NCBI GenBank assembly: GCA_036170915.1
Contig: JAVHQC010000029.1
Span: 262,950-326,949 of the forward strand
Direction: 5' to 3'
Length of the DNA stretch: 64,000 nt
Source of the DNA: Cyanobacteria bacterium auto_48_18
Lineage (GTDB): Bacteria; Cyanobacteriota; Vampirovibrionia; Obscuribacterales; Obscuribacteraceae
Shown here: positions 12,001-24,000 of the stretch, piece after piece
Layout: each line of letters opens with the position of its first letter
Numbering within the stretch: the stretch's first letter is position 1
Made by a program: the position numbers

Positions 12001-15000
12001 ACGTAGACGACAAGATTATTAAACGCGCTCAGGAACTGGAGATTACTCCAGAAAAATTGTCGCGCCAATGTACTTATGATTTCTGGCGTGACATGAAAGC
12101 GCTTAATATCGAAGCTCCCGATTTTGAGCCGAGGGCAACCGAGTTTATCGCCCAGATGATCGCCTTTGCAGAGTCTCTGATAGAAGCTGGACACGCCTAT
12201 GAAGCTGGCGGAGATGTTTATTTTGACGTTGCCTCATTTGAAGGCTATGGCAAACTGGGCAAACAAAATTTGGAAGAGCTAATGGTAGGTGCCCGAGAAC
12301 AACTTGTGGCGCAAGAAGCTCTCGCACATTTGAAAAAAAATCCGGTAGATTTTGCTTTATGGAAAAGTGCAGATGCGTCTGAACTCGGCTGGCCAAGCCC
12401 ATGGGGCAGAGGTCGCCCTGGTTGGCACCTGGAGTGCTCTGCCATGGTCAAACGTATTTTAGGAGAAACAATTGATATTCACGCCGGTGGTGAAGACCTG
12501 GTTTTTCCGCACCACGAAAATGAAATTGCCCAATCAGAAGCTCTGCATGGTCAACCCATGGCGCGCTACTGGTTGCACAACGGTTTTGTGCAAACCAATT
12601 CAGAAAAGATGGCAAAATCTCTAGGCAATTTTAAAACCATCAATGATTTGCTCAAAACATTTTCGCCTGATACTATTCGCCTTTTCATTCTTCAGTCTCA
12701 CTATAGAAACCCTATCGATTTCACCATAGAAAGTGTGCAGGCAACAGGAACTGGCTTACAAAGATTGCTGCGGGCAGCTGCTTTTGCCACACTCGATGAC
12801 GACATTGACGAGGTTGACGCCGAGGTGCCGAGTGGAGCAGCTCAAAGCTTAGCCGAAACATTCAAACAAGAATTTGCCGAAGCCATGAATAACGATTTCA
12901 ATACTGCCATCGCAATTTCGCAACTTTATCAACTGGCTGATGGAATCACACAAACCGCAAGCGTTTCAGACAAACACTACCTAGCAAACACCCTTTTGCA
13001 TTATGCTAAAGTGCTCGGCTTGACCATGGTCGACACGCGCAAAGACATCGACAGCGACACGGGCAGCAAACTCATTGACTTGATTTTGACCTTGAGAAGC
13101 GAAGCCCGTGCACGAAAGGACTATGCCTCTGCAGATCTGATTCGCAAGACATTGACTGAAATTGGCGTCAACGTCATGGATGGCCCTCAAGGCGCAACCT
13201 GGGAAAAAGTCTAGTTTTCATAGCATTTCGACCTACCCAGGTCTATCAGTTTTAATAAAGCCGAGAAACAGCGAAAATACAGCCGCCCGGCTACTTTTTC
13301 AATCTAAAAATATTGTATCTATAGTTCCAATCAGCAAATTCCTTAGCACCACTGCACCATGAGTGATACCGCCCCTCTCCTTCAGCAGTGTAATCTTTCA
13401 AAATGATTGACACGATGCCCATTTCCTGCAACTTGTCGTAAGTCTGGCCACCTTCCACCAATATTACAGCCGGTTTTTGAATCTGAATTTCAGCACCGAT
13501 GCGGCTGTACAGTTTGGCTTTAAGCTTAGTCAACCAGCCAAAAGGTTTGCCTAATATCTGATCAGTAAGACTGTGATCTTGAATATTAGCCATTGTACTG
13601 AGCGGCTCGCTACTGAGATAGTAGCCGCAAATCTGCCGATTGACTCGTGCATAAACTGGAAAAGTCGGCAGCAAGCGACCATTCAAAATCAAAACTTTTT
13701 GATCTGGCCTGGAATAGTTGGTCAGCGCCGTCTCAATATCAATGAAATCGGGATCTAGTGCTCTCGGACCAATTGTAACTGTAATGTTTTCCCGTCGCTC
13801 CATGGTTTCACAACCAGCCATGACCCCGAGACTGCCAAGGCAAAAGAGAGCGAAGAGATAAACCTTAACGCTGTTAACTCGCGTCTCTCTATGAGAAAGA
13901 TAGGGGTATCTTCTGGCGAAATTAGCTACTAACGATCCATCAATGAAAATAATGGCAATGACCGACAATGCCAAACACATTGACCATATCAATATTGATA
14001 GCTCGCTGCTGAGGCCGGTCATTGTCGACAAATAAATTGAAAAACCACCCATCATAACCGTCGCCAGGGGTCTCAAAAATGGTGCTCGACTAATTAGCCC
14101 AAAGCAAATGACCATTACAGCCGTGCACAAATAAATGACACTGCGCCGATCGGGAGTGGCACCATAGCCATAAAATGCAATCTGATCAAGGTGCAAGCTG
14201 GCAATCTTGAGTGGAATAATCCAGTCATCCAACTCAGCAAGGGCGGCAGCGTTTAGCGTCAATATCCACGTCCAAGATAATGCATACGCAGCAAGCAATG
14301 CCCAAAACTCAACCGGGGGTTTAAGCTTTTGAAACCGTGTAGAAACTAGTTCGGTTATTTCCACCAGCAATATAACCGGCAGAAATAGCGGGCTGATACC
14401 GGCTCCCAGACCAGCCAGAACTCCACAAAGAATCCGCAACCAAACTGGCGGCTTTGCGCCGGCCCAGCGAATTGCACGCAAAAATAAATAAGGCGTGAGC
14501 AGCAAACAAAAAATATGCTGCGCGCAGCCAAAAACAAATCCCATAGCAAAATTCGCCAGACCGACACCAACCAGCGCAGCAGCCAGTAAGCGCAGAGGCT
14601 TTTGCGGCAGCCTTGACGATGTAACAATGTAGAAACACAGCAAAAATGACAAGACAGCAGTTAGCGCCGTGATTATGTATGAAGAGAGTGCGCTTGACCA
14701 GAAGGGTGTGACCACAAGAATCGCACGGCTGCTGGCCAGGTCAGCAAAGAGCTTTGCTAGAAACACTGCTGGTATGCGCAGATAAGCAATTAAAAGAGAC
14801 TGATCAAAATAAAAATCATAAAAAGGCATTTGACCGGCAATGATTCGACCAGCGGCTTCCATCTCATAACAAACTGTGCCACTCAACTCCATGAAATAGA
14901 ATGCGCGATAGATCAAACTGGCACTGAAAACCAGGCAGGCAGCGGCAAGCAACATCACCGGCAGTTTATATAATTGATGTGGCTGTGAATCAGTCATTGC

Positions 15001-21000: not shown

Positions 21001-24000
21001 GAAAATCTCAAGCGCAGCTATTTTATCGAACTGAATGCGGGCGGTAAGATCACTGACGATGGCCACGGGTAATTTGACGGCCTCGAGAAAAGCAAGGCAG
21101 CCAGGACGCAATTGCATGTTTTCGAAAAATACAGTCCAATAGATGTCTTCGGCCTGGGGAGCCAGCCGATAAGGCAAAATATCAAAATGCTCGCACACAC
21201 CTTGAAAATAAAGCAGGCGGCTATGCGAAGCGGCAAATCCGTGCAATTGTTGGTTAACGTGTTTGCGGCAGACGGCATAAGCTTTTTCGACAACGGCATA
21301 ATCTTTAGCAGTCTCCAGGGCTAACCAGTGCAGTGCGGCAGACAGAGCAGGCAAGTGGGCCCTCTGATAATCGTATATGGTGTTATCGAGGTCAAGAAGA
21401 ATACCCCTGATGCTCTTAACAACGCTCACTGATTTTCTTCCTTATCTTTCATCAAGTCATTGAGCACAAGCAAAATAATTAATTGCACAAATCCGCGCAA
21501 ACCTTCCACCCATTCAATCTCACCGTCTATCAATTCCTCTAAATTAGGAATCATGTCGCTGGCGAGCTTTTGCAGTAAGAACTTGGGCACTGGTTGAGAG
21601 AGAGTCAGGTCTTGTTTAGAAAGATTTTCACTGTAGTCCCAGTGCAAAAGCAATCCGTGACTCATTAGCTCTTGCACCAGTTCTTCAAGATGAATGCTCG
21701 AGCTAAGCGAAATTTTCAGTGATAGTTTGGCCTCGGCAGTGAGCGAGCCATCATCTAATAATGCTTGGGGATAATAGCGAATACAGAGATCAGCAAACTC
21801 TTTTTGCGGTGCGATAAATCTGTCTACATCAGTTTTACGACGAGTTACTTGAGCAGCAGCCTGTTGCTCTGTGTAGCCTCGTTCTCTATGATCTCTTGAT
21901 ACTTTCCAAAAAGTTTTGAGTTCCACTTCAGGATCCATAAAAATTTTGAGATCAATTACTTTGCGCGACTTTGGCAAATAAAATGTATGCAGGCCACTCA
22001 AGACAATGAAGTCATTGGGCTCAACGGTTGTGGCATTAGTAAAAGCACCGGTGGCGTGGTCATAATTGACGCGCTCGACACTGCGTCCACGCTTAAGGTT
22101 GAACAACGTATCGGCTTGCCTGTGCAAAAAATTAGCTTTGGGGTCAAGGTGGGTAATGTTCTTGCCTTTCCAGTTTGCATCATTGCGCGCCCATTTATGG
22201 TCAGCATCACCTTCAAGCTCTACCACTTTGTGGGCGAGCAACTTTTTGACGTCGTGCAGTAAAGTCGATTTGCCGGCACCACTATCGCCACCAATGCCGA
22301 TAACAATTGCCCGCTCTCGTTTGTATATGGAATTGCTGCGCACGCCAATGCGATAGCAGAGCACAATGTTGGCCATCAGTGCCGCTTCTAACAAGGTGAA
22401 CACCAGCGAGGCGAGATAGTTGCTATTGGTAGGAGCAAACAAATTCCAGGTGACCACCTGCCCTAGAAAAATTATGGCGGGATAATCGAAATGATGGAAA
22501 AACAGAAAATACAAAAGATAGAAGAAATACAAGGCATAGCCGGCCGGAACAATACGATTGTCACGACGACAATATTTGATCATGAAGATGCTGAGAAATG
22601 GTGCAATCCAAACGTACCAGCCTGGGGCGGGAACAATCAAGGCGACAAAAAGAGCAAAGACAATCAGCAGGAAAGCGTCGAGCAAATCGGTATTGATTTT
22701 GGCATAAAGAGCAAAGCGCACATAGGCTATGCACACGGCCAGTACGGGCAAAAAAATATGCATCGAGCCGATGTCTATATAAGATTCAAAAATTTGGCTC
22801 TGCTTAGGATTAAACAAAACAATGGCTTGAAAGCCTGGCGAAGCTAAAAATGGCACCACAAATAGTGCCAGCACCAGCAAAGCAAAAAGCAAATAGACTC
22901 CTGCACTTTTGCCTTTCTGATTGCGATAAAGATAAATCAAAAACAGGGGAACCGCTGCAGCCACGTGGGATTTGGTAGCCAGAGCCAACCCTGTTAGCAA
23001 GGCAGATTTAAAAGCATCTTGTTTACGTAAATAATAAAGCGCGGCAAACAGTATCGCCGTTGGTATCAAGTCTAGCTGCGAGTGAATATAACAAGCGTAC
23101 AAAATTATGGGTGATAGAAAGTAATACCAGAAAACTCTATCGACTCTGGTAGGAAACATTCTTACCAGTAACCAGGCAATTAGAATGTCACTCAGCAGCG
23201 TTGGCAATTTCATAAAGAAATTGACCAGATACAAATTTTCGAAGCCCAGAACTTTTAAGGGCAGACAGAAAAAGCCAAGCAAATAAAGCATGAGTGGCTG
23301 ATAAGGAAATTGATCGCGCTGAATAGTGGTCTGGTAGAAGAAATCCCAGGTGTTGTCGAAGTGACCGATAAAATGCTGCACGAACGGTATGAAGAGGGCG
23401 ACCATGTATCCGGAAGAAAACAGCACCATCAGGATAATCTTTGCCAGCACTACAAAAGCGAAGCTACCACCAGTCACGGGTGCCCGATTTTTAAAAGACC
23501 GCTGAGCTTCGCGGTCGACACTTTGCGCGCCGGTTTTTAGTGTAGTGTCCATCAAAACCATCGATTGCTTACCAGTCTCATATGCCCGAAGCTGTGTGCC
23601 TCAGAACGCTATTTACAACCAGCAATTAATGCAGTTGCCGACAGGTAATCATACGAACCTATTTTGCGACGCTATTTTGCGGCTTTATTATCGTCTGGAT
23701 AGTAAAGGAAATCGCAACGAAACTGAGCTGGTGCTTCTTTGAAATCTGCCGGCAGTGGGGCAAAAGGCGAAAGCATTTTAACCGAATCAACGGTTCTTTC
23801 GATGGCCCTTTGACCACCTGTGGCACTGACAGTATGAACATCGGTGCACAAGCCCGGCCTAGTAATGGTGAAGACCACCGCCACACTATATCTGCGATCG
23901 CTTTTGAGCGGTCTCCAGCCATCGGTCAAACGGTTTTGCAAATCGATGCAATATTGCTGTTGGGCCGGTGTAAAACTTGACTCGCTCAAGGGCATTACCA

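What a model noticed while it worked through the whole genome (the two positions that open the first line are those of the whole stretch)
13291..23561. Phosphoribulokinase fused to a GT-C membrane glycosyltransferase heads a conserved Rubisco-free sugar-activation cluster [...]
g03095 joins a 400-aa GT-C-like membrane domain to a class II phosphoribulokinase domain. It heads an operon with a RuBP-5-phosphatase-like HAD enzyme, a class II aldolase-fold protein, a tandem nucleotidyltransferase, a polyprenol-type GT2 and a further conserved small protein. The cluster recurs across many phyla and probably uses PRK without Rubisco to make a pentulose-1-phosphate donor for surface glycosylation.
Evidence so far: The kinase domain matches solved PRKs at E 6e-32 against 4e-14 or weaker for human and Thermus uridine kinases. 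The HAD's best NCBIfam hit is haloarchaeal RuBP 5-phosphatase, E 1.7e-42, below the cut-off; g03092 has nucleotidyltransferase hits in both halves; g03091 is ArnC-like. 457 clusters match the fusion at E<=1e-100; 304 stretches in the species-genome collection encode a relative. In 51 of the 80 fetched loci taken as distant (Leptospira, Paenibacillus, Lachnospiraceae, Bacteroidota, Omnitrophota, Babeliales, Gammaproteobacteria, Gastranaerophilales and others), neighbours are aldolase 46, HAD 44, nucleotidyltransferase 43, GT2 33, g03090 27. No RuBisCO_large row in G000. Paper search [...]
(Added by a program. Inside this text positions count along the whole contig: contig position 262,950 is position 1 of the stretch shown here. 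"Call 12" and the like, gene names such as g00115 and contig names such as C1 are that model's own, and its searches are not shown. The text may have been shortened before it was handed on; [...] marks where a part breaks off. The agent that wrote the report below was given it as the finding of a first reader that could run no searches.)

Follow-up and report, generated by a model that had tools for sequence, protein, structure and literature searches.

The report
Rubisco-free phosphoribulokinase sugar-donor pathway
Many bacteria and viruses appear to borrow the Calvin-cycle enzyme phosphoribulokinase, without Rubisco, to start an undescribed pathway that most likely makes an activated five-carbon keto-sugar and attaches it to surface glycans.

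Summary
The eight-gene operon is real. The 711-aa protein joins a GT-C fold (Z 28 to GPI mannosyltransferase I) to a class II phosphoribulokinase with all Ru5P- and ATP-binding residues invariant (80/80). PDB 9qkn is itself a PRK. No carboxylating Rubisco was recognised in 78 carrier genomes; the 4 hits look like Rubisco-like proteins. The unexplained 201-aa gene is a GDPD-fold phosphodiesterase, and 33/80 loci add a GtrA flippase. The soluble core (PRK, phosphatase, class II aldolase, phosphodiesterase, two nucleotidyltransferases) recurs in giant-virus contigs beside a soluble GT61, with other fusions and replaced subfamilies. Two cultured cyanophages carry it without PRK; their host makes RuBP. 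Best reading: RuBP to pentulose-1-phosphate, phosphate shifted to the anomeric O2 through a cyclic phosphate, then NDP-pentulose, undecaprenyl carrier and periplasmic transfer. Every reaction is inferred and the sugar is unknown. The fused GT-C keeps its putative donor site, but the likely catalytic Asp is Gly here and D/E in 42/78, so it may sense the lipid-sugar. A complete cassette sits on an E. coli plasmid. This scan noted the system before on other DNA.

The parts
21426..23561 (-). 711-aa fusion: GT-C-fold membrane domain (about residues 26-412) joined by a long helix to a class II phosphoribulokinase (about 414-705)
20716..21429 (-). 237-aa HAD phosphatase; proposed RuBP 5-phosphatase giving ribulose-1-phosphate
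   Evidence: RUBPPhHalo E 1.7e-42, 145.7 bits against cut-off 330; D13, D15, K159, D184, D189 conserved
19589..20713 (-). 374-aa class II aldolase-fold protein, nearest to the N-terminal domain of rhamnulose-1-phosphate aldolase/SDR fusions; proposed epimerase or aldolase on pentulose-1-phosphate
   Evidence: E110, H123, H125, H187 conserved
17937..19592 (-). 551-aa tandem nucleotidyltransferase, two homologous but separately conserved domains, related to BcbE-type capsule proteins
   Evidence: (hhalign of halves, probability 100)
17224..17940 (-). 238-aa GT2 of the polyprenol-phosphate-sugar synthase type (ArnC/GtrB/PpgS-like), no transmembrane helix predicted
16626..17231 (-). 201-aa GDPD/PI-PLC-fold TIM-barrel phosphodiesterase; proposed cyclic-phosphate forming or opening enzyme
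   Evidence: model pLDDT 94; Foldseek and VIA top hits are GDPDs, Z 17.2; H10, R11, E28, D30, H42, N66, K68 invariant in 59/59 and 41/41
14990..16636 (-). 548-aa membrane protein, ArnT/PMT_2-like by language-model features; candidate acceptor-specific GT-C transferase
   Evidence: score 0.99, lead only; Asp after first helix in 15/15; no Pfam hit; not folded
13291..14997 (-). 568-aa membrane protein, distant paralogue of the 548-aa protein; second candidate GT-C or partner subunit
   Evidence: hhalign probability 99.9 to the 548-aa family; present in 12 of 80 loci, all close relatives

Best explanation
The operon makes an activated pentulose (keto-pentose) and adds it to a surface glycan. Proposed steps, all inferred: (1) PRK converts ribulose-5-phosphate to RuBP; (2) the HAD removes the 5-phosphate, giving ribulose-1-phosphate whose free O5 lets the furanose ring close; (3) the class II aldolase-fold enzyme resets a stereocentre by retro-aldol/aldol, most likely to L-xylulose-1-phosphate; (4) one nucleotidyltransferase domain makes NDP-1-pentulose, and the GDPD-fold enzyme releases NMP through a 1,2-cyclic phosphate and opens it to the anomeric 2-phosphate; (5) the second domain makes NDP-2-pentulofuranose; (6) the GT2 loads it on undecaprenyl phosphate, GtrA or another flippase moves it out, and a variable GT-C transfers it. 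Viruses use the same donor with a soluble GT61. The GT-C-fold domain fused to PRK probably binds the lipid-linked sugar and couples PRK to carrier load, rather than being the main transferase (about 50:50). My odds by layer: kinase makes RuBP 0.85; pathway ends in glycosyl transfer 0.9; pentulose activated at C2 by the cyclic-phosphate shift 0.5.
For: PRK identity: fold covers both PRK domains (Z 29.4 over 279 residues to 9qko, 27.6 to 5b3f; uridine kinases Z 20.3 over 197). H455, R459, Y500, H502, K553, R556 are invariant in 80/80 bacterial and 23/23 viral copies and match M. hungatei PRK H55, R59, Y98, H100, K151, R154 at offsets 400-402 (residue list from PMC5241800). Rubisco absent or only Rubisco-like in 78 carriers. 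RuBP 5-phosphatase and Ru1P aldolase chemistry has a precedent (PMC9700705). Coupling of steps: GDPD+NT1+NT2 in one ORF in 14 of 41 viral loci, HAD+aldolase in 27 of 41, PRK+aldolase in 7 of 18. A second viral type swaps in a short BcbF-like HAD (14/18) and another GDPD subfamily (16/18) while keeping every role. Cyanophages S-SM2 and Bellamy hold NTase pair, GT61, aldolase, HAD and GDPD but no PF00485 match. Ketose link: the NTase halves hit the 247-aa protein beside a true EcbF-BcbF phosphatase (iE 4.5e-14), and bcbE and bcbG mutants lose the capsule fructose (PMC13552107). Lipid arm: 26/26 tested small membrane ORFs are GtrA, 33/80 loci.
Against: No activity is shown and no carrier has a glycan structure that I could link to the cassette. 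HAD, PRK and aldolase all score below their curated NCBIfam cut-offs. The NTase link to the fructose module is distant and was made to an E. coli locus of undetermined capsule type, not to P. multocida BcbE itself. GT61 enzymes I recall use aldopentose or GlcNAc donors, not ketoses. The cyanophage argument rests on two phages, and S-SM2 has a nearby carbohydrate kinase that could stand in. G000 has no GtrA and 47/80 loci lack one nearby. The HAD is missing from 16 of 80 loci, some with long flanks. Most carriers are incomplete MAGs, so absence of Rubisco is a floor.
Confidence: 0.55

Rival explanations
1. Same upstream steps, but the transferred sugar is an aldopentofuranose (for example arabino- or xylofuranose): the aldolase-fold protein or the GDPD-fold protein isomerises or rearranges ribulose-1-phosphate to an aldose-1-phosphate before activation.
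For: Viral partner is GT61 in 36/41 loci, a family I recall for xylosyl and arabinofuranosyl transfer; lipid-linked pentofuranose systems are known (PMC11127046).
Against: One nucleotidyltransferase would suffice, yet two separately conserved domains plus a phosphodiesterase are kept in all versions; the known pentofuranose route starts from PRPP and needs no PRK.
Confidence: 0.17
2. The aldolase cleaves ribulose-1-phosphate to DHAP and glycolaldehyde, as in haloarchaea, and the NTases and GDPD make a CDP-polyol or other small phosphodiester substituent.
For: HAD plus aldolase do exactly this cleavage in haloarchaea; E110 and the His triad fit a true aldolase; weak IspD-family hits on the NTase.
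Against: No reductase recurs in the core; GT2, GtrA, GT-C and GT61 move glycosyl groups; DHAP is available without PRK.
Confidence: 0.1
3. The kinase acts on another acceptor (xylulose-5-phosphate, a hexulose or heptulose phosphate, or a nucleoside), so the sugar is not ribulose-derived.
For: Score below PRK cut-off (188.7 against 236 bits); about 25% structural identity to solved PRKs; databases often name it uridine kinase.
Against: Complete PRK residue set and C-terminal domain; an equally distant archaeal PRK is specific for Ru5P among nine acceptors; the neighbouring HAD's best family is an RuBP phosphatase.
Confidence: 0.1
4. Sub-rival on the fusion only: the fused GT-C domain is the active transferase (or a hydrolase that recycles undecaprenyl phosphate) using a base other than residue 51.
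For: Fold closest to active mannosyl- and glucosyltransferases; D125, H160, Q162, D164, K197, W315, W318, P321 invariant or nearly so; position 51 is D or E in 42/78.
Against: Position 51 is G, A or H in 36/78 and G here; non-catalytic PIG-U replaces DxD by SSW (PMC12653191) and this family reads SS[D/G/E/A]; a separate variable multi-pass protein usually lies nearby.
Confidence: 0.4

Closest known systems
Three-component periplasmic glycosylation (GtrA/GtrB/Gtr*; ArnC/ArnT; Citrobacter PRPP-based pentofuranose system, PMC11127046)
   Same: GT2 polyprenol-phosphate-sugar synthase, GtrA flippase in 33/80 loci, GT-C-fold proteins, mobile cassette on plasmids.
   Different: Carries its own five-enzyme donor pathway starting at PRK; donor is neither UDP-glucose nor PRPP; a GT-C fold is fused to the kinase.
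Class II phosphoribulokinase (Synechococcus 6kev/6hzk, cyanobacteria-specific 9qkn/9qko, M. hungatei 5b3f)
   Same: Fold over both domains, Walker A, catalytic Asp/His and Ru5P-phosphate ligands.
   Different: Fused to a membrane domain (bacteria) or to a DUF7796-like or aldolase domain (viruses); found without carboxylating Rubisco; biosynthetic glycan context.
Haloarchaeal non-carboxylating pentose bisphosphate pathway (PMC9700705)
   Same: RuBP 5-phosphatase-like HAD next to a class II aldolase, no Rubisco.
   Different: That route is catabolic, makes RuBP from ribose-1,5-bisphosphate and ends in DHAP and ethylene glycol; here RuBP would come from PRK and feed nucleotidyltransferases and glycosyltransferases. 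The aldolase belongs to another subfamily (RU1PAldHalo E 0.0014).
BcbE/BcbF/BcbG capsule fructosylation module (P. multocida type B; E. coli K4 KfoE)
   Same: Related NTase fold; a BcbF-like HAD in one viral type; DUF7796-like neighbour in both; product is a ketofuranose side chain.
   Different: That module has an APH-like kinase and one standalone NTase, and no PRK, aldolase or GDPD in the loci examined; its chemistry is also unresolved.

Membership tests
Class II phosphoribulokinase | Ru5P/ATP-binding residues (His55, Arg59, Tyr98, His100, Lys151, Arg154 in M. hungatei) and catalytic Asp/His | tested here: met
   H455, R459, Y500, H502, K553, R556, D452 invariant in 80/80; mapping by spacing and by the alignment to 6kev
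Class II phosphoribulokinase | Two-domain PRK fold including the C-terminal domain absent from uridine kinases | tested here: met
   279 residues aligned, Z 29.4 (9qko) against 197, Z 20.3 (3asy)
Class II phosphoribulokinase | Curated family score | tested here: not met
   188.7 bits against cut-off 236 for PRK07429; so filed as PRK-like, a separate clade
Class II phosphoribulokinase | Ru5P kinase activity | not testable with these tools
   needs assay
Calvin cycle | Form I/II Rubisco in the same genome | tested here: not met
   0 in G000; 4 of 78 carriers have PF00016 hits, all with MtnW enolase as best family, 2 above its cut-off; many genomes incomplete
GT-C superfamily (fused domain) | GT-C fold | tested here: met
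   Z 28.3 over 349 residues to GPI-MT-I, 25.5 ALG6, 25.1 ALG3, 24.1 PIG-U, 20.3 PimE; GT87-like neighbours
GT-C superfamily (fused domain) | Conserved catalytic Asp in external loop 1 | tested here: inconclusive
   Position 51 is D 33, G 29, E 9, A 6, H 1 in 78 homologues and G in the window; its equivalence to Gpi14 D39 is inferred from topology, no residue-level alignment was available
Three-component Gtr-type glycosylation | GT2 lipid-sugar synthase + flippase + GT-C | tested here: inconclusive
   GT2 66/80, GtrA 33/80, GT-C fold 79/80; this genome shows no GtrA
GDPD/PI-PLC phosphodiesterase | TIM barrel with His-Arg, Glu-x-Asp and second His | tested here: met
   motif roles recalled; N66 stands where GDPDs, as I recall, have a Glu
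Haloarchaeal RuBP 5-phosphatase | Curated score | tested here: not met
   145.7 against 330 bits, though the best of 40 families
BcbEFG fructosylation module | BcbF phosphatase above cut-off plus APH-like kinase | tested here: not met
   window operon has neither; related only through the NTase fold

The most novel reading that the evidence does not exclude
A new class of nucleotide-sugar pathway: PRK is used outside carbon fixation to park phosphate on C1, and an NTase-phosphodiesterase-NTase relay moves it to the anomeric C2 through a cyclic phosphate, giving the first NDP-pentulose donor. The pathway is shared by bacteria, giant viruses and cyanophages (which tap host RuBP), and in bacteria a pseudo-transferase GT-C domain reports the lipid-linked sugar across the membrane to throttle the kinase.
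Probability: 0.35. Interest if true: 0.9.

Novelty: new variant of a known kind. Interest (0 to 1): 0.74.

Why it matters
PRK is treated as a Calvin-cycle marker; here it sits in non-autotrophs and viruses in a glycan context, so PRK calls in metagenomes and viral 'photosynthesis' gene lists may be misread (two virome papers mention viral PRK that way; whether their genes are of this family was not checked). How pentuloses such as xylulose are activated for bacterial glycans is open: an E. coli O-antigen review found no precursor genes in the O95 and O97 clusters. This cassette gives a concrete, soluble enzyme set to test, with a complete copy on an E. coli plasmid and copies in two cultured cyanophages.

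Tried and rejected
Uridine kinase reading: rejected on fold, residues and the 9qkn title. Sequence-profile search of the fused membrane domain against PDB found nothing at E<=1; only the fold comparison placed it. The viral PRK N-terminal domain gave no PDB profile hit and no match to one WavE protein; only a weak DUF7796 hit (E 0.011). DNA searches of 5426 E. coli genomes found the cassette in 2 and nothing with the PRK-less Scandinavium module, so no link to O95, O97 or K4 strains could be made. The Y. enterocolitica O:10 cluster lists no xylulose precursor genes and Yersinia genomes could not be searched. TIGR01689 over 401 genomes gave one sub-cut-off hit. Cultured phages gave no hit for the window's 201-aa protein or a close PRK. 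Promoter/terminator scan was near chance (24 against 16.4 +/- 3.5). No RNA holder was listed. The kinase tree is the quick version only and has no proper Calvin-cycle outgroup: viral copies group together (support 94) but direction of transfer is not shown. The apparent link between Gly51 and missing GtrA is confounded by kinship and not used. Paper searches showed no description of this cassette; the library lacks most subscription papers and no supplements were opened.
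Full report
OBSERVATION. The region 13291-23561 holds eight minus-strand ORFs of 711, 237, 374, 551, 238, 201, 548 and 568 aa, overlapping or abutting at every junction (-11 to +2 nt). GC is like the rest of the window. 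Nearest relatives are Obscuribacterales-type Melainabacteria; 13 of 14 same-genus genomes carry the fusion. The fusion has 481 homologous clusters at E<=1e-20 among 8000 scored candidates. In the 80 best of 346 genome loci, aldolase occurs in 71, NTase 69, GT2 66, HAD 64 and the 201-aa protein 60; 47 have all six partners. Record titles span Melainabacteria, Spirochaetota, Bacillota, Bacteroidota, Pseudomonadota, Omnitrophota, Babeliales and others; gene order varies.

THE KINASE IS PRK-LIKE. Solved PRKs score E 9e-32 to 8e-26, uridine kinases 8e-14 or weaker. The model (pLDDT 89.5) aligns over 279-280 residues with cyanobacterial and archaeal PRKs (Z 29.4, 27.6) but 197 with Thermus uridine kinase (Z 20.3). 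9qkn, labelled uridine kinase, is titled a cyanobacteria-specific PRK. M. hungatei PRK binds substrates with H55, R59, Y98, H100, K151, R154 (PMC5241800, passages); H455, R459, Y500, H502, K553, R556 keep that spacing and are invariant in 80/80, as is D452. The score stays below the curated PRK cut-off, so this is a distinct clade. Rubisco: none in G000; 4 of 78 carrier genomes have PF00016 hits, all best matched to the MtnW enolase, two above cut-off and in methionine-salvage operons.

THE MISSING PARTS. The 201-aa protein folds as a GDPD/PI-PLC TIM barrel (pLDDT 94; the first eight distinct VIA rows include seven GDPDs, Z up to 17.2) with invariant H10, R11, E28, D30, H42. Such enzymes work through cyclic phosphates (established knowledge, recalled). 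The small ORF between NTase and GT2 is GtrA in 26 of 26 tested, present in 33 of 80 loci but not found in G000. The fused membrane domain is a GT-C fold (Z 28.3 to GPI mannosyltransferase I). The 548-aa protein looks ArnT/PMT-like by model features (a lead) and keeps an Asp after its first helix in 15/15; the 568-aa protein is its paralogue. Most distant loci carry other, unrelated multi-pass proteins; of 44 scanned out of 82, 7 hit PMT or PMT_2 (3 above cut-off) and 28 had no family.

NATURAL EXPERIMENTS. A complete cassette (NTase, GtrA, GT2, GDPD, fusion, HAD, aldolase, 586-aa protein) lies near IS26 on an E. coli IncR plasmid (2 of 5426 genomes), and on Hirschia and Azospirillum plasmids. 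In viral contigs the 201-aa profile found 41 loci, 23 of them giant-virus MAGs: NTase domains in 36, aldolase 31, HAD 29, PRK 28, GT61 36, but the GT-C fusion in only 2, which resemble the plasmid cassette. GDPD+NTase are one ORF in 14 and HAD+aldolase in 27. All PRK residues are invariant in 23/23 full-length viral copies. A second set of 18 new viral loci found with the fusion profile uses a short BcbF-like HAD (14) and another GDPD subfamily (16), with PRK fused to the aldolase in 7. So six catalytic roles persist through fusion, shuffling and replacement, and the donor is a soluble nucleotide sugar independent of the lipid arm. Cultured cyanophages S-SM2 and Bellamy have the NTase pair, GT61, aldolase, HAD and GDPD in a row but no PRK-family gene, as expected if the host's RuBP is the input; two phages only, and S-SM2 has another sugar kinase nearby.

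MECHANISM (inferred). Ru5P cannot form a furanose because O5 is phosphorylated. PRK followed by a 5-phosphatase moves the phosphate to C1; haloarchaea do RuBP to Ru1P with a related HAD (PMC9700705, passages). A ketose needs phosphate on O2 to become a donor. Two nucleotidyltransferases flanking a GDPD-fold enzyme give a direct route: NDP-1-pentulose, 1,2-cyclic phosphate, 2-phosphate, NDP-2-pentulose. The aldolase is retained in every version, so it is probably on the path; its nearest family handles rhamnulose-1-phosphate, whose configuration would suit L-xylulose-1-phosphate (my inference). A ketose product is also suggested by kinship with the capsule fructose module: the NTase profiles hit the 247-aa protein next to a bona fide EcbF-BcbF phosphatase, BcbE is described as a 241-aa NTase-fold family (PMC11641403, passages), and bcbE and bcbG mutants lose fructose (PMC13552107, first part and passages). 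I did not compare with P. multocida BcbE itself.

THE FUSION. In Gpi14 the donor is held by E140, K173, Y319, W322 and the base is D39; PIG-U, non-catalytic, has SSW in place of DxD (PMC12653191, passages). Here D164, K197, W315 and W318 are invariant, and the first two lie 24 residues from E140 and K173, the offset at the start of the structural alignment (inference, no residue-level alignment). The loop-1 motif reads SS[D/G/E/A/H], acidic in 42 of 78 and Gly in this genome. The domain keeps about 40% identity across phyla with different envelopes. This fits a binder of the lipid-linked sugar that regulates the kinase through the joining helix, but an atypical transferase or a recycling hydrolase is about as likely.

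AGAINST. Nothing is assayed; no carrier glycan is known to me; GT61 chemistry favours aldopentoses (recalled); the flippase is missing here; HAD is absent from 16 of 80 loci.

COMPARISON AND NOVELTY. The export arm is a Gtr-type three-component system; the PRPP-based pentofuranose version (PMC11127046, abstract and passages) does not mention xylulose, ribulose or ketose. The donor arm matches no system I found (searches; subscription papers mostly missing). An E. coli review reports no precursor genes for xylulofuranose in the O95 and O97 clusters (PMC7685785, passages), and the Y. enterocolitica O:10 cluster lists none (PMC11380512, section 11). Two virome papers read viral PRK as a photosynthesis gene (PMC10732071, PMC13390420, passages). 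Earlier notes of this scan describe the same bacterial cassette and the giant-virus version; I looked them up after forming my reading and after finding the viral loci, and they are not independent support.

VERDICT. Real, widespread, mobile and apparently undescribed. New variant of a known kind by architecture, with a donor pathway that would be new if the chemistry holds. Interest 0.74.

Noticed in passing
L090-L148 (IMG/VR contigs): Giant-virus and other viral contigs encode the soluble core with GT61; the viral PRK carries an N-terminal domain of about 200 aa with a weak DUF7796 match, or is fused to the aldolase.
   Followed up: yes
L150:3702-7761 and L151:3699-7788: Cyanophages S-SM2 and Bellamy carry the module without PRK; the short HAD is annotated as phosphoheptose isomerase.
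   Followed up: yes
L084:6022-14984: Complete eight-gene cassette on an E. coli IncR plasmid near IS26; near-identical copy in a second strain.
   Followed up: partly
L152:4630-6318: A DUF7796-like domain (E 2.3e-5) also lies beside the BcbF/APH/NTase trio of an E. coli plasmid capsule locus; candidate ketosyltransferase family.
   Followed up: partly
L089:1552-11549: Rhizobium plasmids hold a PRK-less module (GDPD-like, HAD, three NTase domains) right after genes that look like erythritol catabolism; it may activate a tetrulose.
   Followed up: no
L087:5238-8388 and L088:2047-9183: PRK-less, aldolase-less variants (NTase, phosphodiesterase, HAD, small cupin-like ORF) in Pseudomonas and Scandinavium polysaccharide loci.
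   Followed up: partly
L024, L026, L027: Orphan copies of the fusion without the cassette; L024 and L026 are second copies in genomes that also hold the full operon, beside a PMT_2 protein.
   Followed up: no
G000 contigs C6, C35, C22: Paralogues of the 548/568-aa membrane proteins elsewhere in the genome, one beside a GT2.
   Followed up: no
window 10320-13214: Convergent upstream genes look like glutamyl- and cysteinyl-tRNA synthetases (recognised from motifs, not tested); the operon ends 76 bases from them.
   Followed up: no
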